Shown here piece after piece: positions 3,470 through 37,299 of a stretch of DNA of 64,000 nt. The notes beneath the pieces are model-generated. The model was not told the origin of the DNA. It was given only the letters and a program-made list of their open reading frames with translations, and searched no databases. This DNA comes from an uncultured Gemmatimonadota bacterium. Its GTDB lineage: Bacteria > SM23-81 > DAOVCL01. Made by a program: the position numbers and the translations under genes. The stretch's first letter is position 1. Each line of letters begins with the position of its first letter. The stretch covers positions 20,912 to 84,911 of the forward strand of contig CAZVGK010000012.1 in assembly GCA_964626665.1 (NCBI GenBank), given 5' to 3'.

Positions 3470-5644
3470 ATGAGAGGGGAAACCTTTATGCGAATTAAGA
3501 TAGCAATTTTATTCATACCTCTTTTGCTCATAGGCGTGGCGCAAAACGCGCGGGCTGCAGGGAAGACGGCCTGCTGGCTCAAGGGCTGGGTGAGAAACGA
3601 GGAAGGGAAACCCCTCCCCTATGCCAACATCTTCTTGAAGGGACGGATAGAGGGGGCAATGAGCGATGAGCAGGGGAACTTCTCCTTCTCTACTACCGCG
3701 CAGGGTAGAATCACCTTGATCTGCTCCTATATCGGCTACAAAACCTATGAGAGGGAGATAACCCTCAGGCCAGGGGAGACGATCAGGCTGGAGATCAGAT
3801 TGAAGACCGAGATAATCAAGGGGAGACTGATAACCATCACCGCCAGCAGCTTTACCAGTGCAGACAAAGAGGGGGTAACCCTCTCCAGCCTGGATGTGGT
3901 AACCACCCCCGGGGCAGCAGCGGATGTCCTTTGGGCGATAAAGACCTTTCCCGGTGTAGCTCAGGTGGAGGAGGGAGCCGGGTTGTTCGTCCGGGGTGGA
4001 GATGTTAGCGAGACGGTGATGCTTTTAGATGGGGCCGTCCTCTCCCATCCCTACAAATACGAATCCCCCACCGGTGGATTCTTCGGCACCATCAGCCCCT
4101 TCCTGCTTAAGGGAACTTACTTCTCCAGTGGAGGATTCTCCGCGCGCTACGGGAATGCCGTCTCCGGAGTATTGGCTATGGAGAGCAGGGATCTGCCAAC
4201 AAAGGGGGGAGGCACCTTGGGATTGGGCCTGGCTGCCGAGTCAGGTGAGATCAGACTCCCCCTGATCCCCGGGAAGTTAGGGTTTTCCTCCTCCGGAAAT
4301 ATCAGTGACACCAAGGCCATGTTCAAGCTGAACAACTCCCAGGGGAGGTTCTCCCAATATCCTTACGCCCATGACCTGAACTTCAACCTTATGTATCGGT
4401 ATTCCCCCAGTGGCTACCTTAAGCTCTTCCTCTTTCACGAGATGGATAAGATCGGGGTGAAGGTGAAAGACCCCCAATACGGCGGATTTTACAAAGGGAA
4501 AAGCCTCAATTACCTCTATAATCTGAAATTCAGTAACCTTTTTGTCCATAAGCTCTTGGTCCAGGGCAACCTCGCCTTCACCAATTTTAAACAGGAATCG
4601 CAACTAAACAGGTTAAACCTAAATTGCCAGGATAGGCTGAGCCAGCTTAAGCTCTCGGGGGATTGGGAGGCGGGCAGTGACCTTATCCTACGCGGGGGTA
4701 TATCCCACTTCTCCCGGAAGGTTCTCCAGGCGGGGACCATCCCCCAGGAGGAGGAGGACCTAAACCCCAATGCCCCCATAGATATAGTCGATACCCACTA
4801 CCACTCCGGGCTGACCAGTGGCTTCATCGAGGGTGAAATCTATAGCTTCTTGGGGAGGTTCATCCCTGGGCTGCGCGGGGAATATGAATCGAACTCCGCG
4901 GAGTTTACCCTCGACCCACGTCTCTCCCTGATGTTCCCCTTGGGAGCCCATTCCGGGTTGACCGCTGCCTGGGGGGTCTACCATCAGTATTCCAACCCAC
5001 AATACTATGACCCCAACATCGGTAATCCGAATCTGACAGCGATGGAAGCCACCCACAGGATCTTAGGATACGAGTATCAACAGGGGACCCAAATCCTTAG
5101 GATTGAAACCTACTCTAAGAAATACAGAAAATTGATTTTAGTGGATTCAACCTATAATTATACCAACGATGGCTACGGCTATGCCAAAGGGATTGATCTA
5201 TTTGTGAAACGATCCTTTAAGTCGGCATCCGGCTGGTTGTCTTACAGCTACCTTAAATCCAGGCGGAGGTGGAGGGATTTCCCCGATCTGCGGCCTCCTT
5301 ATTTCGATATCCCCCACAACCTGACCCTGGTGGCAAAACATGATCTCACCTCACACTTGAACTTGGGGGCAACTTATCGCTTTGCCACGGGCAAACCCTA
5401 TACCCCAGCCCCCGGCCAATACAATACTAAGAGGGTCCCCGACTATCAGAGGTTGGATATGAGCTTAAGCTACCTTTGTAGCCTCTTCGAGGGCAACTTT
5501 ACCGTTCTCTATCTCTCCGTATCCAACCTTCTAAGAAGGGTAAACATCTTTGACTATCGCTACTCGTCGGATTACAGCCAGAGGGAGCCGGTGAAGAGCT
5601 CCTTCGGGAGATCGGTCTATCTTGGGGTGTCACTGAGTATTTGA
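3470..5644 (+). CDS. TonB-dependent receptor with N-terminal carboxypeptidase-regulatory-like domain
   Basis: GWVRNEEGKPLPYANI...SYIGY; plug motifs PGV, LFVRGG, LLDG, SGGFSARYGNAVSGV; C-terminal beta strand. Start may be 3488. Confidence 0.92.
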   Translation: MRGETFMRIKIAILFIPLLLIGVAQNARAAGKTACWLKGWVRNEEGKPLPYANIFLKGRIEGAMSDEQGNFSFSTTAQGRITLICSYIGYKTYEREITLRPGETIRLEIRLKTEIIKGRLITITASSFTSADKEGVTLSSLDVVTTPGAAADVLWAIKTFPGVAQVEEGAGLFVRGGDVSETVMLLDGAVLSHPYKYESPTGGFFGTISPFLLKGTYFSSGGFSARYGNAVSGVLAMESRDLPTKGGGTLGLGLAAESGEIRLPLIPGKLGFSSSGNISDTKAMFKLNNSQGRFSQYPYAHDLNFNLMYRYSPSGYLKLFLFHEMDKIGVKVKDPQYGGFYKGKSLNYLYNLKFSNLFVHKLLVQGNLAFTNFKQESQLNRLNLNCQDRLSQLKLSGDWEAGSDLILRGGISHFSRKVLQAGTIPQEEEDLNPNAPIDIVDTHYHSGLTSGFIEGEIYSFLGRFIPGLRGEYESNSAEFTLDPRLSLMFPLGAHSGLTAAWGVYHQYSNPQYYDPNIGNPNLTAMEATHRILGYEYQQGTQILRIETYSKKYRKLILVDSTYNYTNDGYGYAKGIDLFVKRSFKSASGWLSYSYLKSRRRWRDFPDLRPPYFDIPHNLTLVAKHDLTSHLNLGATYRFATGKPYTPAPGQYNTKRVPDYQRLDMSLSYLCSLFEGNFTVLYLSVSNLLRRVNIFDYRYSSDYSQREPVKSSFGRSVYLGVSLSI

Positions 5645-31992: not shown

Positions 31993-33540
31993 TTAAAGGA
32001 TATAGAAGAGCAAAATCCCGGCCAAACAAAGGAACATCATTCCCATCCCCAACTTTACCCCCTTCCCCCTTCTCTTCCAGAACTCCGTCAACCTCTCTGA
32101 GGTCATCCCCTTGTAGGCCAGAAGGAAGATAACTACCAGGGGCAGGATAAAACATAGGTTATAAAAGAATAGATAGAGCAGGGCCTTGGCCTTGAGGGCG
32201 GGGACCTTGGTCACAAATATGATGGTGGGCAGGTAAACCTGGCCTGTACAGGCAAACTCCAACAGGGAGATAAAAAAACCAGTAACCAAAGCGGCAAGGA
32301 CATAGTTTTTCGCTCGAGAGCGGGTGCGCACCGCCTGGTGTATTCTCCTGTGCAGGAACCCAGGAAGCTTGAGAATAGATTCTTCATACTCGCTCTCCCT
32401 GTATTTAGCATAGTCGTAAAAACTTAAACCAGCCAAAACCAGGGCCCCAGTTGCAGTAAGTATATAGACTATTCTGGCCACAATGGGCATAAAGCTCAGG
32501 GATTGAACGAACTTCAGTAGGCCTAACCCCACTATAAAGTAGGTTATGAAAACAGCCAGGGTAAAGGCAGAACCAACGGCGAGTAGCTCCCTCCCCTTGC
32601 GGCCCACAAAGGCCAGATAGGAGATGAAGAAGACTATGGTCACAAAGGCGCAGGGGTTTACCCCGTCCAAGAGACCAGCGGAGATGACCGTGGTGATCTC
32701 CAAGCCCTTGAACCTGCTGATTATCTTCTTCTCTGCCCGCTTCAGCTCCCCTCGGGCCATCTCCCAGGGAGGGGTTGCTTCTACATCCTTATATTTTTTA
32801 ATGAGCCTTTCTAAGTTCTTGTCATTCACCTCCATACCTAACAGGTAATCCCCCCCGATGAAGGCCTCCGGGATGGACATCCTTTGGGCTTCCGGGACAT
32901 TGTATACCTCCCCCAAGGCCTCCGCCAACCTTTTGCTCTCTGGATCCAGGATGTTAAACTTTCTCACCACCAAATGGGGATATTTACTCTCCAGGTGCTT
33001 TATCCGATATTCAGCCCTGTCACACTCCTTACAGCCAAACTTGTAAAAATAGGCCAGATAGATCTTCTTACTCTCCTGGGCTGGGGGAATTTCCCCCATC
33101 TCCCCCTCCCCCCAGACAGGTTTTGAGGCATAAACCCCTCCCTGGGTAAGCTCCAAATGGGAGAAGGGAATTCCGGTTGCAGAATACTGGGAGAGCACCC
33201 CCCGCAGTTTTCCTTTTACATCCTGACCGCTGAGCAGGGAATCGCCGATGATGAAGACTGGGATTTCATTCTTCCCCTTCCCATAGGCCTCTTCCAGGTT
33301 CACCAGCACCTGGTAATTGGCTGGGCTGTTCACCTCGAAGTAGCGCAACTGAAGCCTGTCCCCATAGAGGAATTCAATCTTGGGCAGGAAATTTTTGATG
33401 ATCACCTGGCAATCCTCGCAATCCTGGGCATAGAAGACATAAAAAGAGAGCTTGGGGCCCTCTTTCCCACTTGCCCAGGAATGGTTGAAAATCACCAGGA
33501 AGAGAAGGGATAATACCCAACCAACTCTGCCCAACCTCAA
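31993..33540 (-). CDS. DsbD/CcdA-like thiol-disulfide transmembrane protein with two periplasmic thioredoxin-like CxxC domains
   Basis: Signal peptide, YAQDCEDC and FGCKEC motifs, TM domain with GLLDGVNPCAF and LLEFACTGQVY cysteines. Confidence 0.85.
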   Translation of the reverse strand: MRLGRVGWVLSLLFLVIFNHSWASGKEGPKLSFYVFYAQDCEDCQVIIKNFLPKIEFLYGDRLQLRYFEVNSPANYQVLVNLEEAYGKGKNEIPVFIIGDSLLSGQDVKGKLRGVLSQYSATGIPFSHLELTQGGVYASKPVWGEGEMGEIPPAQESKKIYLAYFYKFGCKECDRAEYRIKHLESKYPHLVVRKFNILDPESKRLAEALGEVYNVPEAQRMSIPEAFIGGDYLLGMEVNDKNLERLIKKYKDVEATPPWEMARGELKRAEKKIISRFKGLEITTVISAGLLDGVNPCAFVTIVFFISYLAFVGRKGRELLAVGSAFTLAVFITYFIVGLGLLKFVQSLSFMPIVARIVYILTATGALVLAGLSFYDYAKYRESEYEESILKLPGFLHRRIHQAVRTRSRAKNYVLAALVTGFFISLLEFACTGQVYLPTIIFVTKVPALKAKALLYLFFYNLCFILPLVVIFLLAYKGMTSERLTEFWKRRGKGVKLGMGMMFLCLAGILLFYIL

Positions 33541-33620
33541 ATCACCTCCCCCATTTTAGGGTTTTGACCTCCTGATCTTCTTCAGCCTATGGCCTTTTTG
33601 CTTCTTCTTGTCCAAGATGA

Positions 33621-33646
33621 GGTGGCAGAACCCCGATTCTGCCACC
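33621..33646. repeat. REP-like palindrome GGTGGCAGAACCCCGATTCTGCCACC
   Basis: Exact copy. Confidence 0.85.
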
Positions 33647-33719
33647 TTCACCTTTTGCTGGTAGGTGAGGGCACCTGACGGCTTACCGGTGATGTAATTC
33701 CACGAGATTCCAAGATGAA

Positions 33720-34694
33720 CTATTTCTTCCTTATTTTTTGCCCCTTCTTGTACGCCCGAATCAACTCCAAAATCCCCGGATCATCCTTAATCTTCTCTTC
33801 CAGGAGCTGGGAACGGGATTCAATCGACTCCAGCCTCCTCCGCGGATTTAAGGAAAGGATGAGGTCCCCCGCATAATAGCTCTTTGTACCAGCAACTGCC
33901 AGATAGGTTTCCCCTACCTTCTCCGGTAGCCCCTCTACCGATCCTATCCTTCCCCCGATTATCAGGTTAATCCCCTCTATCTTCTTGGCCAGTTCCTGAG
34001 ATTGGCTCTGCTCCAAATCGGTGAGCACAATCACCAGATCACATTTCCCTCGCAGCTTGTGCACTAAGCGACTGGCAACCTCCGTTGGATCGTCCACCAC
34101 CAGCGGTTTGTCCCCCTGTTGAGGCTTGATCCGCTCGATTGCCGCAGGTGAGGCCAAACCAAATATCCCCACCTTGAGCCCTCCATATCCAATACCCAGA
34201 AAGCTTTTCCCCCCATACCTCTTGATGATATAAGGCCGGGCAAAATGCGACCCCGTATCCTTATACCTGATGTTGGCCGAGATTAGGGGGAGCTTATACT
34301 TGCCCCCCAAATCCTTAAGAAATTTCTCCCCTAAGAAAAAATCCCAGCCGGCTACATTTATGGCATCGTAGCCCAAAAGAGCCATCCCTCGGGCCATAAA
34401 TTCAGCCTTCAGCTTGCTGGTCCTACTTCCATAACAGAGGAACTGACTCGCATCAACGGCCAGCAGACAGGCGTTACTAACTCTATTCTCTTTTATGTAT
34501 GTGGCTCGCCGAGCCAACCCGCCATAATCATGGCGATGTCCTCAGGTGGGGCAGGGCTCCAGATAACCCCACATATTCCCCGAGTAGACGACCTGGACCT
34601 TATCTACGGCCACCTGGGGGGAACTGCAGGCCCAAAAGGAGCCCAAGGCCAAAAGCAAAAGGAAGAGTAGCAAAAGGCGCATCTCCCTTTCCAT
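33720..34694 (-). CDS. UshA/5'-nucleotidase-like lipoprotein, predicted selenoprotein (in-frame TGA at codon 51, CxxU)
   Basis: AAAGGAGG RBS, ATG 34694, lipobox FWAC, then GYLEPCPT-TGA-GHRHDYGGLARRATYI in the same frame as ORF 33720..34517; hairpins 3' of the TGA. Confidence 0.8.
34502..34544 (-). promoter_or_regulatory. Candidate bacterial SECIS hairpin(s) after the UGA
   Basis: mRNA UGA-GGACAU-CGCCAU(GAUU)AUGGCG-GGU-UGGCUC(GGC)GAGCCA; both loops start with G. Confidence 0.5.
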
Positions 34695-34768
34695 CGTTAT
34701 CCTCCTTTCAATTGGAACCCTGGCAAGCCAGAGCTTGTTGAGTTTGATACCCACAATGGGCAAGGCTT

Positions 34769-35167
34769 TCACCCTTGCCCATTCCTGTTCAACGAAGACG
34801 GGTCAAAATTGACCCCCGTTTCCAGGCGCTTACACCTATCCATCACAGCAGAATTAAGACACATCCCCACCTTCTGCAGGTCCTGCTTTGTCACCTCCTT
34901 CCTCTCCATCCAATCCCTTATCGCTGGAGAGAGAACCTGCAGATAGGGATTATCCTCCAGGGAATAGAAGACCCATTTCCCCTCTCTCCTGTCCTTAACC
35001 AAACCTGCCCCCCTTAGTATCCGCAGTTGGTGGGAGATATTCGACTGGGAGGCCCCCAAAACATTCTCCAGCTCACAGACACACAACTCCCCTTCCATAA
35101 GTAATCTTACCATCCGCAATCGGTTAGGATCGGAAAGGGCCTTAAAGATTTCGCCCAAGTCCCTCAT
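34769..35167 (-). CDS. arsR: ArsR/SmtB family repressor with ELCVC motif
   Basis: FKALSDPNRL, GELCVCEL, SQSNISHQL, REGKWVFYSL. Confidence 0.93.
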   Translation of the reverse strand: MRDLGEIFKALSDPNRLRMVRLLMEGELCVCELENVLGASQSNISHQLRILRGAGLVKDRREGKWVFYSLEDNPYLQVLSPAIRDWMERKEVTKQDLQKVGMCLNSAVMDRCKRLETGVNFDPSSLNRNGQG

Positions 35168-35176
35168 CTAAGAAGA

Positions 35177-35222
35177 TATGAAGATTCTTTCATAAGTTAA
35201 TAAACCTCTCCCCCCAAGTCAA
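35177..35222 (-). promoter_or_regulatory. arsR promoter with overlapping ArsR-type operator
   Basis: Minus-strand TTGACT (35222-35217), 17 nt, TAACTT (35199-35194); inverted repeat TATGAA-N6-TTCATA (35177-35194). Confidence 0.65.
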
Positions 35223-35405
35223 GGGGAAAATGAAATCCCTCTAGCCTCCTTCATAAGGCAACTTCCTCTGTGCAGGACAAAAATCCCCCGGAAATGGATT
35301 AATCATTTGAGATAATTGTTGTTAGTTAAAAAATTGTTTGACATTTCGTGAATAATATGCTCAGTTATGACGTCGGGAAATACTTCTTTAATAGGAGATA
35401 GCGCC

Positions 35406-35627
35406 ATGACTGAGATTGAAATCATAAAGAAAGCCTTCAAAGATCATCTGAAATGGAACGCTGCAAGAATAGGCTTCTTAGCCAACTTTCTTATTGCACT
35501 TTTGAAGGTCAGAAGTGTCAATTTAGTTGAGATTGCAACTGCCTTTTCCAGAAAAGCCAAGAAAGAGTCGAACTATAAACGTCTACAGCGATTCTTCAGA
35601 TTTTTTCCTATTGATTTTTCAACTATT
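35406..35627 (+). pseudogene. IS4-family transposase N-terminal fragment, truncated by a second IS
   Basis: LKWNAARIGFLANFLIALLKVRSVNLVEIA...SNYKRLQRFF resembles IS4-family N-termini; the similarity ends at the next element's inverted repeat (35628). Confidence 0.75.
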
Positions 35628-37299
35628 AGAGGCTGTTTAAAAATTGCCTCTGAATTTGAGTTAACTATTTAATTTCAAAGAAGTTCTTTGAAAAAAATTT
35701 ACTTTTCCCTCTAAAAAAGGTTGACTTTGATGAAAATTTGATTATATTATTGCTTGTTAATAGTCAAAGCTTCAACCTTTAAGGAGGTAAGAAATGAGCC
35801 AAAGTCATCAACTGTCGTTCATCAGGATCTATGATAAAGAGGTTGATCCTGACTTAGAACGGTTGGATGAGCTGATCAATGATGAGGCCATCGATGCAGC
35901 CTTCTCCTATAAGATAGCCTGGCGGGGAAGAAAACTTGTCCCTATCTCCAGGAAGGTGCGAGCCCATATCCTCAAGGCAATCAAGAGGATTCCCTCCTTC
36001 AATCAGCTCTGTAGGGAGCTCAAGCAGCGAAAGGCCTATCGGAGATTCTGCCATCTAAAGAGCAAGAAGGATGGCTTCTGTCCTGCTACCTTGACCAACT
36101 TCCGCCAGGATTTCTCCTTCCGGGATCGGCTCACCCTGATCTCTATCTTCATCAAGACTGCTGACTCCCTGGGCTTCTTCCAGAACTGCTCTCAGTTGCA
36201 TATCACCGACTCCACAGAGATGGAGTCCCCTTGTCGCTGGGAGCCTATTGAGGTTATAGAGGTCAATGGATGTAAGGTGGAGGTGTTCCGAGACCCCACA
36301 GCCAGTAGAGGGAAGCGCGCAGCCAAGAAGGGCAAGAGCCGTTTCCTGGTGGGCCATAGGAAGCACTCCTTAGCTATTCTCCTGCCCAACAACAAGGTGG
36401 TTACCCTCATTTCAATTGTTGCTCCCGCCCATCAGCAGGATGTCCATTTCCTTCTGCCCCTTTTATATCTGGCCCAGGCCTTGGGGCTTGAGGTAAAGTA
36501 TGTGGTGGCAGACTTGGCCTACATAGACTCTGAGCGCAAGAGGGTGGCCAAGGAGAGGTTTGGGGTAGTGGTTCATACCGACAAGAAGGTAAACAGCCGC
36601 CTGCCTGAGATGGTTGATGAGAGAGGTGCTCCCTATTGTATTATGGGGGAGAACCTCCAGTGGTTGGGCCTTGACCAGGAAAGCGGGCTGCACTATTATG
36701 GGTGTGGATTGGATGAGCCAAAGGATTGTCCCCTCTATGGGGGATGTGAGAAGCTAAGGGTGATTGACTCTGCCCAATACCCGGTGGCCTTTGGCCAGAT
36801 CCCTGTTCACCTTAAAGTGGGCCAGAAGATGCTGAGGGCAAGGAAGTTGAAGGAGCCCGGTTTCTGGCGGGATAGGAATAAGGGTGGATTAGACAGGATT
36901 AGCTTGTTGAACAAGGATAATGCTCACTTCTTAGCAGTGATTGCCGATGTCTGTGATCTTTTGGACTCTCTGGCAATTTTCTTAGAAAGCAAAAGGTCAC
37001 TTCAGAAGAAGACAGCTTAAGGCTGGTTTATAGGCAGTAGCCCAGAGGGGTCAGTCAGAAGGGGGTTTCTCCCACAAAGAGGGAGCGGTTGAACTTTCTA
37101 TCCTCAAGAGGATAGAAATCCGCCTTATAAGAGCTAAAGATGGGATAACTTTGCCTTCTGGCGGAGCCCTTGAGCACTTTACTGCTTACATATGTCAAAG
37201 AGCGGCAATTCCAGGGTCTTGATTTTTTTCAAAAAAGGCCTGAATGCCAAATGGGTACCTCTAATCCCAAGAGGAAAATTCTATTTTTAAACAGCCTCT
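35628..37299 (+). mobile_element. Insertion sequence (IS1182/IS5-like DDE) with perfect 17-bp terminal inverted repeats
   Basis: AGAGGCTGTTTAAAAAT (35628-35644) and ATTTTTAAACAGCCTCT (37283-37299) enclose a transposase ORF. Confidence 0.88.
35794..37020 (+). CDS. DDE transposase
   Basis: AAGGAGG RBS; PATLTNFR, ITDST, GHRKH, VVADLAY motifs; lies within the inverted repeats. Confidence 0.85.
   Translation: MSQSHQLSFIRIYDKEVDPDLERLDELINDEAIDAAFSYKIAWRGRKLVPISRKVRAHILKAIKRIPSFNQLCRELKQRKAYRRFCHLKSKKDGFCPATLTNFRQDFSFRDRLTLISIFIKTADSLGFFQNCSQLHITDSTEMESPCRWEPIEVIEVNGCKVEVFRDPTASRGKRAAKKGKSRFLVGHRKHSLAILLPNNKVVTLISIVAPAHQQDVHFLLPLLYLAQALGLEVKYVVADLAYIDSERKRVAKERFGVVVHTDKKVNSRLPEMVDERGAPYCIMGENLQWLGLDQESGLHYYGCGLDEPKDCPLYGGCEKLRVIDSAQYPVAFGQIPVHLKVGQKMLRARKLKEPGFWRDRNKGGLDRISLLNKDNAHFLAVIADVCDLLDSLAIFLESKRSLQKKTA

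What the first reader, a model, noticed from the sequence alone, without database searches (positions are those of the whole stretch)
33720..34694. Hidden selenoprotein: UshA-like lipoprotein with an in-frame UGA forming a CxxU motif
Seen: ORFs 34542..34772 and 33720..34517 share a frame and are separated only by TGA (34542-34544). With the strong RBS and ATG 34694, the product is a 324-aa lipoprotein (FWAC) reading ...GYLEPCPT-U-GHRHDYGGLARR..., with hairpins immediately 3' of the UGA. The metallophosphoesterase ligand motifs of UshA (DxH, GD, GNH, GHxH) appear replaced (SGNMWG, DASQF, AGWD, GGRI). Known: from memory, UshA-like selenoproteins exist, usually with a CxU motif; this needs verification. 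Inference: a catalytically dead phosphoesterase fold reused as a periplasmic redox or metal-binding protein with a thioredoxin-like CxxU spacing. TGA is an ordinary stop elsewhere in the window (e.g. the TonB receptor and LytTR genes), so this is not a whole-genome code change.
Basis: partly seen in the sequence, partly recalled or inferred. Interest (0 to 1): 0.88.

Follow-up and report, generated by a model that had tools for sequence, protein, structure and literature searches.

The report
Unannotated UshA-like selenoprotein lipoprotein gene
The in-frame TGA almost certainly encodes selenocysteine in an exported 5'-nucleotidase-like protein that has lost its metal site; this kind of selenoprotein is already catalogued, so the result is a corrected gene model with a useful hint about function.

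Summary
One minus-strand frame runs from ATG 34694 to TAG 33720 and has a single TGA at 34542-34544 (codon 51). It gives a 324-aa protein with a signal peptide, a lipobox and the motif C-P-T-Sec.

The TGA is not damage. All 12 close homologues examined keep it at the same position (35-100% identity, from 6 genomes and 4 metagenome contigs). Distant homologues carry Cys there (74 CxC, 8 CxxC, some CPTC). Two hairpins follow the UGA in every Sec form and in none of 8 Cys forms, and synonymous change is suppressed over them. selA, selB and tRNA-Sec are present. selD was not found in this assembly.

UshA-like selenoproteins are known (COG0737 CxU, 2008; NCBIfam NF041198 CxU and NF049981 CxxU). This gene scores below both curated cut-offs, and public gene calls truncate it. 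The same scan has met this family on other DNA many times.

All metal-ligand positions of the phosphoesterase fold are replaced.

The cluster arsR, Sec gene, membrane protein (two thioredoxin folds plus a CcdA-like domain) is conserved in 6 of 6 loci. The pairing with the membrane protein recurs in a distant genome. A periplasmic thiol/selenol redox role is therefore likely but not shown.

The parts
33720..34694 (-). Full coding sequence of the UshA-like selenoprotein (324 aa plus TAG stop)
   Evidence: one frame with a single TGA. NCBIfam NF041198 scores 142 bits and NF049981 74.5 bits. AF2 model pLDDT 94.6. Foldseek finds the 5'-nucleotidase N-terminal domain.
34542..34544 (-). UGA codon 51, read as selenocysteine
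   Evidence: Conserved in 12 of 12 close homologues. It aligns with the second Cys of the CxC/CxxC motif in distant homologues.
34551..34553 (-). Cys48 codon, the partner in the C-P-T-U motif
   Evidence: CP[TS]U is kept in all 6 orthologous loci (window, G002, L060-L063).
34520..34535 (-). Hairpin 1 after the UGA (CGCCAU-GAUU-AUGGCG)
   Evidence: A hairpin stands at this place in all Sec forms although the sequences differ. RNAalifold keeps 4 pairs, and one pair changes on both sides in 3 of 10 sequences.
34502..34516 (-). Hairpin 2, the likely SelB-binding SECIS stem-loop (UGGCUC-GGC-GAGCCA); its loop starts 31 nt after the UGA
   Evidence: Present in 7 of 7 Sec forms and 0 of 8 Cys forms, and also in G002 paralogue 2. 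Six pairs, with one compensatory U-A to C-G change. Only 4 of 64 identical-residue codons changed synonymously in U..+16, against 321 of 806 elsewhere.
34701..34706 (-). Shine-Dalgarno AGGAGG, 6 nt before ATG 34694
   Evidence: read from the sequence.
34626..34694 (-). Signal peptide ending in the lipobox FWAC (Cys23)
   Evidence: Orthologues keep x-x-A-C followed by S (LSAC, FLAC, FYAC, FSAC). Judged from the sequence only; no predictor was run.
34769..35167 (-). ArsR/SmtB-type regulator gene upstream on the same strand (74-nt gap)
   Evidence: Pfam HTH_5 4.2e-19; NCBIfam HTH_metalloreg 108.5 bits against a cut-off of 55. ELCVCE and the C-terminal C-x8-C are kept in 4 of 4 full orthologues. 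It is adjacent in 6 of 6 loci.
31993..33540 (-). Downstream gene: 515-aa membrane protein with two CxxC thioredoxin folds and a CcdA/DsbD-like membrane domain
   Evidence: Adjacent in 6 of 6 loci. C170, C173, C297 and C431 are invariant, and C41 and C44 nearly so, in 51 sequences. Foldseek hits two-Trx-fold disulfide oxidoreductases (1a8l, 1.4e-4, prob 1.00). JGI names relatives CcdA/thioredoxin/glutaredoxin, and one relative carries PF02683. Atlas lead.
33618..33647 (.). REP-type hairpin repeat in the 179-nt gap between the two genes; not part of the selenoprotein
   Evidence: About 120 blastn-short hits across the genome. Very high contig depth at 33614-33670.

Best explanation
Window 33720-34694 (minus strand) is one intact gene for an exported, probably lipid-anchored 324-aa selenoprotein. 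Its fold is the N-terminal metallophosphatase domain of 5'-nucleotidase (UshA), without the C-terminal nucleotide-binding domain, and every metal-ligand position is replaced, so it is not a phosphoesterase. UGA-51 is decoded as selenocysteine with the help of a stem-loop whose GGC loop starts 31 nt downstream of the UGA. This gives a C-P-T-Sec motif in the loop that follows the first strand. These steps are shown by comparative evidence.

The following steps are inferred, at about 45% for the mechanism as stated. The Cys/Sec pair is a periplasmic thiol/selenol redox centre. The product of the next gene keeps it reduced: a CcdA/DsbD-like membrane domain carries electrons across the membrane to its two CxxC thioredoxin-fold domains. 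The three genes are switched on through the ArsR/SmtB repressor, with its CVC site, in response to a thiophilic metal(loid) or a reactive sulfur or selenium species. The substrate is unknown.
For: Sec coding:
- A single in-frame TGA.
- The 8 strongest of 51 genome matches each hold one TGA, and none of the other 43 does. In the phylum, 8 of 8 matches in 6 of 7 genomes hold it.
- Four further metagenome orthologues at 67-77% identity have TGA at the same codon.
- Protein conservation continues across the TGA.
- Distant homologues have Cys: of 172 related proteins, 74 are CxC and 8 are CxxC, including CPTC and CPSC.
- Hairpin 2 is found in 7 of 7 Sec forms and 0 of 8 Cys forms, with a compensatory pair change.
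- 4 of 64 against 321 of 806 synonymous changes.
- selA 538 bits, selB 352 bits and tRNA-Sec 73 bits are all over their cut-offs.
- TGA is a normal stop elsewhere.

Fold and dead site:
- The family profile hits 5'-nucleotidases at 8e-62.
- The AF2 model has pLDDT 94.6, and Foldseek finds 3ivd at 3.8e-24 with TMq 0.75.
- Ligand positions are N40, W42, Q84, W117/D118, D226 and R249/G251.
- There is no Pfam hit.

Redox relay:
- The arsR, Sec gene and Trx/CcdA-like cluster is found in 6 of 6 loci.
- In a distant genome a Cys-form lipoprotein sits directly beside a 30%-identical homologue of the membrane protein (E 5e-47).
- Redoxin and DsbA-like genes flank two haem-fused relatives.
- The partner has invariant Cys residues and two Trx folds.
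Against: - selD was not found in this assembly: best 90.3 bits against a cut-off of 125 and 66 against 299. tblastn with the congener's NifS-SelD fusion matches only the NifS half. The place syntenic to that congener's selD neighbours lies inside a contig.
- No Rfam SECIS family matched: 11 weak matches at E up to 10, none of them a SECIS.
- The folding energy alone is unremarkable.
- The cysteine partner of Sec is not conserved among paralogues: PSGUGS, PSGUGC and SGURGC. A dithiol-like CxxU mechanism therefore cannot hold for the whole group.
- The Trx-type neighbours of the haem-fused forms could instead serve cytochrome c maturation.
- Co-transcription is inferred from strand and adjacency. 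A 179-nt gap with a REP-type hairpin separates the Sec gene from the membrane-protein gene.
- There is no expression, selenium-labelling or activity data.
Confidence: 0.85

Rival explanations
1. The protein is a real selenoprotein, but the Sec/Cys site binds a soft metal or metalloid (As, Sb, Hg, Cd, Cu) or carries sulfur or selenium as a persulfide or perselenide. It would act as a periplasmic trap or carrier and would not cycle as an oxidoreductase.
For: The regulator is an ArsR/SmtB metalloregulator with a conserved CVC site. The Cys partner of Sec varies among paralogues, so Sec alone is the constant. In 4 of 4 genomes of the sister family the homologue lies directly upstream of selA-selB. 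There is weak similarity to SoxB.
Against: The conserved partner with CxxC thioredoxin folds and a CcdA-like domain points to electron supply. A trap would still need that supply to stay reduced, so the two readings overlap. No metal-binding test was possible. Selenoprotein genes often sit beside sel genes for reasons unrelated to function (recalled).
Confidence: 0.25
2. The gene is a pseudogene: a nonsense mutation has broken a Cys-form gene.
For: Public gene calls treat it as a truncated 218-aa protein (P0002). selD was not found.
Against: The TGA sits at the same codon in 12 of 12 close homologues down to 35% identity. Both sides stay conserved as protein. A conserved hairpin with a compensatory change follows it. 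selA, selB and selC are intact.
Confidence: 0.02
3. There are two separate genes: a 50-residue lipopeptide ending at the TGA, and a 265-aa protein starting at TTG 34517.
For: Both ORFs exist under table 11. Gene callers start after the TGA.
Against: The downstream piece would lack the first strand of the fold and any signal peptide, whereas Cys-form homologues are continuous across this point. The 8 codons between the TGA and the TTG are conserved in sequence. The AF2 model of the joined protein is confident across the junction: pLDDT 90 for residues 41-50 and 86 for residues 51-60.
Confidence: 0.03
4. The TGA is a sequencing or assembly error, or it is read as Trp or Gly under another genetic code.
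For: Two database relatives read 'CGW' at the motif.
Against: Independent assemblies and runs show the same TGA. 437 of 1224 long open frames end in TGA, including arsR next door. The 'CGW' readings are better explained by a gene caller that used a TGA=Trp table.
Confidence: 0.01

Closest known systems
UshA-like (seleno)protein family 2, NCBIfam NF049981 (listed as CxxU, 'GenBank annotated', in a table of PMC13188914; passage seen)
   Same: CxxU spacing; short form without a haem domain; 5'-nucleotidase-like N-terminal region. The match covers strand 1, the motif and the first helix (protein 34-114 to profile 2-86).
   Different: The score is 74.5 bits against a cut-off of 140, and only the first third of the 262-position profile aligns. 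The protein is longer (324 aa). No relative tested reached that cut-off either (0 of 9).
UshA-like (seleno)protein, NCBIfam NF041198 'PCGU', the 'COG0737 UshA-like, CxU' family of the GOS selenoproteome study (PMC2398784; passages seen)
   Same: The same domain over its whole length (protein 11-313 to profile 2-298, 142 bits). Sec stands at the same loop position. The protein is exported. The ligand motifs are degenerate.
   Different: The motif is C-P-T-U and not P-C-G-U, through a one-residue insertion. The protein lacks the C-terminal part of the profile (positions 345-519), which in P0020 covers the stretch with the cytochrome c554-type haem domain. The score is 142 against 275.
5'-nucleotidase / UshA N-terminal metallophosphatase domain (PDB 3ivd, 1ush, CD73)
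   Same: The fold (Foldseek 3.8e-24, TMq 0.75; profile 8e-62).
   Different: There is no C-terminal substrate-binding domain. The positions of the DxH, GD, GNH(E/D), His and GHxH ligands are N-M-W, S-Q, W-D, D and R-I-G. It cannot hold the dimetal centre.
SoxB thiosulfohydrolase (TIGR04486; PDB 2wdc)
   Same: The same superfamily, periplasmic, acting on sulfur bound to a carrier cysteine (the function is recalled). Weak hits: 55.6 bits and profile 7e-33.
   Different: 55.6 bits against a cut-off of 550. SoxB keeps a dimanganese site (recalled) and has no Sec or CxC loop.
CcdA/DsbD-type periplasmic reducing pathways (CcdA-ResA, DsbD, ScsB-ScsC; recalled)
   Same: What the three-gene unit seems to work like: a membrane thiol-disulfide conduit plus thioredoxin folds that feed an exported Cys/Sec protein.
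   Different: Here the conduit and two Trx folds are fused in one 515-aa protein that matches no Pfam model at its cut-off. The presumed client is a dead phosphoesterase fold with Sec. The interaction was not tested.

Membership tests
UshA-like selenoproteins in the broad sense (COG0737 UshA-like, Zhang and Gladyshev 2008) | Homology to the 5'-nucleotidase/UshA domain | tested here: met
UshA-like selenoproteins in the broad sense | In-frame UGA aligned with Cys in homologues, with conservation on both sides | tested here: met
   12 of 12 close homologues have TGA. Distant homologues are CxC (74) or CxxC (8) out of 172.
UshA-like selenoproteins in the broad sense | Bacterial SECIS stem-loop shortly 3' of the UGA | tested here: met
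   The hairpin with a GGN loop, 29-32 nt after the UGA, is found in 7 of 7 Sec forms and 0 of 8 Cys forms; it shows a compensatory change and synonymous suppression. There is no Rfam match, and SelB binding was not tested.
UshA-like selenoproteins in the broad sense | Sec machinery in the genome (selA, selB, selC, selD) | tested here: inconclusive
   selA, selB and tRNA-Sec are over their cut-offs. selD was not found. The congener G002 has a NifS-SelD fusion.
NCBIfam NF041198 UshA_like_PCGU | Whole-protein score at or above the curated cut-off (275 bits) | tested here: not met
   142.1 bits, profile positions 2-298 of 519.
NCBIfam NF041198 UshA_like_PCGU | P-C-G-U (CxU) motif | tested here: not met
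   The motif is P-C-P-T-U.
NCBIfam NF049981 UshA_like_Sel_2 | Whole-protein score at or above the curated cut-off (140 bits) | tested here: not met
   74.5 bits, profile positions 2-86 of 262.
NCBIfam NF049981 UshA_like_Sel_2 | CxxU motif (as tabulated in PMC13188914) | tested here: met
   C48-P-T-U51.
Active calcineurin-like metallophosphoesterase / UshA | Metal-ligand motifs DxH, GD, GNH(E/D), H and GHxH | tested here: not met
   All are replaced. PF00149 is not hit. UshA NF007109 scores 31 bits against 600.
Active calcineurin-like metallophosphoesterase / UshA | C-terminal 5'-nucleotidase substrate-binding domain | tested here: not met
   The protein ends at residue 324. Matches cover only residues up to about 320 of the 500-550-residue enzymes.
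SoxB thiosulfohydrolase (TIGR04486) | Score at or above 550 bits | tested here: not met
   55.6 bits.
Bacterial lipoprotein | Signal peptide ending in a lipobox with an invariant Cys | tested here: met
   FWAC at residues 20-23, and xxAC-S in 5 orthologues. Read from the sequence only; acylation was not tested.

The most novel reading that the evidence does not exclude
The Cys/Sec 'dead nucleotidase' proteins are the terminal clients of a dedicated periplasmic reducing pathway, the fused membrane protein with two Trx folds and a CcdA-like domain. In this lineage the pathway is under an ArsR-type sensor, and together they form an undescribed stress-inducible envelope reductase or scavenger for a metalloid or chalcogen. 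In the sister family the same protein is built into the selA-selB operon, so its substrate could be selenium itself, acquired or reduced for selenocysteine synthesis. A bolder but less likely side reading is that this organism decodes Sec without a canonical SelD.
Probability: 0.2. Interest if true: 0.6.

Novelty: new member of a known kind. Interest (0 to 1): 0.3.

Why it matters
In practice the finding corrects a gene model. Public gene calls cut this gene and all 10 of its closest database relatives down to 218-255-aa stumps. Many more distant relatives begin exactly at 'LARRAT', just after the hidden UGA. The two curated NCBIfam models miss this lineage and 9 of 9 relatives tested.

In biology, the family is large: 1571 representative clusters at E up to 1e-10. 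Its function is unknown. The conserved arsR, Sec-protein and Trx/CcdA-like cluster, and the recurrence of that pairing in a distant genome, give a concrete and testable hypothesis of a periplasmic thiol/selenol relay. The placement directly upstream of selA-selB in the sister family adds a second lead, towards selenium handling.

Tried and rejected
- Rfam scan of 33000-35500 at E up to 10: 11 weak matches, none a SECIS.
- Folding energy of the 71-nt stretch alone: not significant.
- The search for related loci with alignments A1 and A2: no stretch conserved enough. The genome-contig scan was therefore never run; a closer alignment was used on metagenome contigs instead.
- Complex prediction for the Sec protein with the Trx-fold part of its neighbour: not accepted for this read-through protein. 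The binding question stays open.
- RNA evidence: no RNA holder listed.
- Sec-type formate dehydrogenase: TIGR01591 finds no match with a TGA in this genome.
- My own crude scan for other read-through genes (coding score on both sides plus a hairpin): 258 candidates, 8 of them with a hairpin, and only the two UshA-like genes convincing. The filter is rough, so this does not show they are the only selenoproteins.
- AIR-synthase-like proteins as a hidden SelD: the best candidate scores higher as HypE (120 bits) than as SelD (90.8) and passes neither cut-off. Its like also occurs in genomes that do have SelD.
- Foldseek on the whole membrane-protein model found the Trx folds but no solved CcdA or DsbD membrane domain among the listed hits. 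The CcdA-like label rests on motifs, source names, one Pfam hit in a relative and the Atlas lead.
- One literature search failed on an illegal character and was not repeated.
- Supplements of the cited papers could not be seen. They may list individual UshA-like sequences.
Full report
**Observation**

On the minus strand, ATG 34694 is preceded by AGGAGG at 34706-34701. It opens a frame that runs to TAG 33720 and contains one internal TGA at 34544-34542. Read through, the frame gives 324 residues:
- a hydrophobic signal sequence ending in F-W-A-C (Cys23);
- then ...VVYSGNMWGYLEPCPT-U-GHRHDYGGLARRAT...

TGA is an ordinary stop in this organism. The arsR gene 74 nt upstream and the CvpA-like gene nearby end in TGA, and 437 of 1224 open frames of at least 300 codons in the genome end in TGA. 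Contigs from other sequencing runs show no alternative letter at the TGA (X2, X21, X22). X20 does not cover it.

**Is the TGA a selenocysteine codon?**

In the window's own genome a paralogue with 41% identity (contig C9) also has one TGA.

Among 41 genomes searched, 51 matches were listed. The 8 strongest (35-100% identity, in 6 genomes) each hold one TGA, and none of the other 43 does. The phylum holds only 7 genomes in the collection. Six of them have a match at E up to 1e-20, giving 8 matches, all with a TGA.

A scan of metagenome contigs gave the window's own contig plus four further loci at 67-77% identity. L061 and L062 are nearly the same. All four have TGA at the same codon, the motif CP[TS]U, and a lipobox.

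The Sec positions line up as follows:

| Form | Motif |
|---|---|
| This gene and its orthologues | EPCPTU-GHRHDYGGLARR |
| Own-genome paralogue | VPSGU-GSHRSGGLARR |
| G002 paralogue 2 | VPSGU-GCNRTGGLARR |
| Sister family | EP(S/G)GU-RGCR(H/Y)GGVARR |
| Distant homologues without TGA | C-x-C, e.g. EPCGC, QPCSC |

A search of 1.84 billion representatives found 5913 relatives at E up to 0.001, 1571 at 1e-10 and 33 at 1e-30. I held 172 related proteins and sorted them by motif:

| Class | Count |
|---|---|
| CxC | 74 |
| CxxC (including CPTC in P0034 and P0081, CPSC in P0062 and P0077) | 8 |
| 'CGW' | 2 |
| Canonical DxH enzymes | 8 |
| Other | 8 |
| Begin downstream of the motif (6 of them exactly at (G)GLARR) | 71 |
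| Unmapped | 1 |

So Sec replaces the second Cys of a conserved Cys pair, and the CxxC spacing of this gene has Cys-form counterparts.

**SECIS**

All 7 Sec forms first examined show two adjacent hairpins after the UGA. The second is UGGCYC-GGN-GRGCCA, and its loop begins 29-32 nt after the UGA. None of the 8 Cys forms folds in this way at the equivalent place, including one that encodes the same GGLARR. G002 paralogue 2 shows the same pair of hairpins.

RNAalifold was run on 10 sequences; L062 and G002 paralogue 2 were left out. It keeps six pairs in hairpin 2, one of them with a U-A to C-G compensatory change. It keeps four pairs in hairpin 1, one of which changes on both sides in 3 sequences, and there are some broken pairs.

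I compared the window gene with four orthologues. Only 4 of 64 identical-residue codons carry a synonymous change in the 17 codons from the UGA onward, against 321 of 806 elsewhere. Fisher's test gives p = 4e-9, but the pairs are related, so the p-value overstates the case.

Against this: folding energy alone is not unusual (z = -1.18), and Rfam has no matching family.

**Sec machinery**

selA (538 bits), selB (352 bits) and tRNA-Sec (73 bits) pass their cut-offs.

selD does not:
- The best TIGR00476 match is 90.3 bits against 125, and the best NF002098 match is 66 bits against 299.
- That best protein looks more like HypE, at 120 bits, and passes no cut-off.
- The congener G002 has a NifS-SelD fusion at 369 bits. 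Three sister-family genomes have a SelD with its own TGA. G001 has none over the cut-off, although it does have selA.
- tblastn with the G002 fusion finds only NifS-like genes in the window's genome.
- The region syntenic to G002's selD neighbours lies inside a contig.

The genome is a 63-contig assembly rated 99.65% complete. I cannot tell a binning gap from a real loss, so this stays unexplained.

**What the protein is**

Pfam finds nothing at E up to 0.01. NCBIfam finds NF041198 'UshA-like (seleno)protein, PCGU' at 142 bits (cut-off 275; profile 2-298 of 519). It also finds NF049981 'family 2' at 74.5 bits (cut-off 140; profile 2-86 of 262), and weaker SoxB and nucleotidase models.

None of 9 relatives tested passes either cut-off. 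The best are the haem-fused P0031 (258 bits) and P0020 (255 bits). In P0020 the profile positions 345-519 match residues 269-434, the stretch that holds the cytochrome c554-type domain.

A 94-sequence profile hits 5'-nucleotidase N-terminal domains at 8e-62 and SoxB at 7e-33. The AF2 model is confident, with pLDDT 94.6 and pTM 0.90. Foldseek finds 5'-nucleotidases, led by 3ivd at 3.8e-24 with TMq 0.75.

Aligned to 3ivd, the ligand positions read as follows:

| Canonical ligand position | In this protein |
|---|---|
| N-D-L-H | G-N40-M-W42 |
| G-D | S83-Q84 |
| G-N-H-E | G-W117-D118-F |
| Family His in L-x-H-L | D226 |
| G-H-A-H | G-R249-I-G251 |

The protein stops where the nucleotidase C-terminal domain would begin. 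It is therefore a metal-free remnant of the fold that carries a Cys/Sec loop nine residues after the lost His position. I could not read model coordinates, so the distance from Sec to the old metal site is not known.

**Context and likely mechanism**

The gene order is arsR (34769-35167), Sec gene, then a 515-aa membrane protein (31993-33540). This order is kept in 6 of 6 orthologous loci: the window, G002 and four metagenome loci, two of them cut by contig ends.

The regulator is an ArsR/SmtB metalloregulator (108.5 bits against 55). It has ELCVCE and a C-terminal C-x8-C, both conserved in 4 of 4 full sequences.

The membrane protein:
- It has no Pfam hit at its cut-off.
- At least 1511 relatives exist at E up to 1e-8. 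Several are named by JGI as CcdA, thioredoxin or glutaredoxin, and some carry Glutaredoxin, Thioredoxin or DsbD_TM domains.
- In 51 aligned sequences C170, C173, C297 (NPCAF) and C431 (ACTGQ) are invariant, and C41 and C44 are nearly so.
- Its model (pLDDT 75) shows two beta-alpha units and then a helical membrane domain.
- Foldseek matches the two-thioredoxin-fold disulfide oxidoreductases and the AhpF N-terminal domain (1a8l at 1.4e-4, prob 1.00).
- The protein atlas gave the same lead.

I looked at 10 distant loci with about 1.5 kb of flank each:
- One has a Cys-form (CDC) 311-aa lipoprotein directly downstream of a 30%-identical homologue of this membrane protein (E 5e-47).
- Two haem-fused forms sit beside a Redoxin/AhpC-TSA protein and a DsbA-like protein.
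- The other seven showed nothing of the kind.

I infer that electrons cross the membrane through the CcdA-like domain, reach the CxxC folds, and keep the Cys48-Sec51 site reduced, with expression controlled by the ArsR sensor. This is inference. The binding test could not be run, and for the haem-fused forms the Trx-type neighbours might serve cytochrome maturation instead.

The Cys next to Sec is not conserved in the paralogues, so Sec itself is the constant. The substrate is open.

In all 4 sister-family genomes the homologue lies directly upstream of selA-selB. In G006, selD lies about 5 kb away. This is a lead towards selenium handling, or it may be only the common clustering of selenoprotein genes with sel genes.

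**Comparison with what is known**

- The GOS selenoproteome paper lists 'COG0737, UshA-like, CxU' with 76 Sec sequences (PMC2398784, passages seen).
- The 2022 review table lists 'UshA-like protein, CxU' (PMC9312934, passage seen).

None of the passages I saw gives a function. I did not read these papers whole, and their supplements were closed.

Earlier notes of this scan report the same family on other DNA (32 notes in at least 29 genomes), including CxxU forms and thioredoxin-linked relatives. I treat these as leads only.

**Verdict**

The gene is a real but unannotated member of a known kind of selenoprotein, and it lies outside both curated models.

- the comparative proof of the SECIS;
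- the complete loss of the metal ligands;
- the conserved arsR and Trx/CcdA-like partnership;
- the sel-operon placement in the sister family;
- the unexplained lack of selD in the assembly.

Noticed in passing
whole genome G000 (not in the window): No selD over cut-off, although selA, selB and tRNA-Sec are intact. The congener G002 has a NifS-SelD fusion. G001 has selA but no selD. Sister-family genomes have a SelD with its own TGA.
   Followed up: partly
G000:C9:52912-53817 (locus L021 1441-2511 +): A second UshA-like selenoprotein paralogue (41% identity) with the motif P-S-G-U and no neighbouring Cys. It has the same two hairpins. Its context is unrelated to the window's cluster.
   Followed up: partly
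L055, L056, L057 and G003:C237 (sister-family genomes G003-G006): The UshA-like Sec gene lies directly upstream of selA-selB on the same strand in 4 of 4 genomes. In G006, selD is about 5 kb away and an HdrA-like gene lies upstream.
   Followed up: partly
window 33618-33647 (some copies extend to about 33683): A REP-type hairpin repeat (10-bp stem) lies in the gap between the Sec gene and the next gene. It has about 120 short hits across the genome and very high contig depth in metagenome runs. Earlier notes on this genome describe such repeat families.
   Followed up: partly
window 35794-37020 (+): A DUF772 transposase-family gene lies just upstream of the arsR cluster.
   Followed up: no
L031 87-2412 (genome G020): In a distant genome a Cys-form (CDC) UshA-like lipoprotein overlaps the end of a gene homologous (30% identity, E 5e-47) to the window's Trx/CcdA-like membrane protein. 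That homologue carries a DUF1573 domain in place of the first Trx fold.
   Followed up: partly
proteins P0027 and P0041: Database relatives read C-G-W at the motif. Most likely a TGA was translated as Trp by a gene caller, which would make them hidden selenoproteins recorded with the wrong residue.
   Followed up: no
L064 (G002:C46) 4724-4896 against G000: A dispersed repeat of about 170 nt is shared between congeners: 18 places on 14 contigs of the window's genome.
   Followed up: no
protein P0034 (780 aa, CPTC form): It carries, after the UshA-like domain, a weak match to the OS_HP2 (seleno)protein domain (47.8 bits, cut-off 100).
   Followed up: no
G000:C13, minus strand, about 52011 and 61072 in my script's coordinates: Two similar ORF ends ('CCAV[RK]V[EQ]PAVWV' followed by TGA), each followed by a hairpin and an open frame. 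They are probably true stops of a repeated gene.
   Followed up: no
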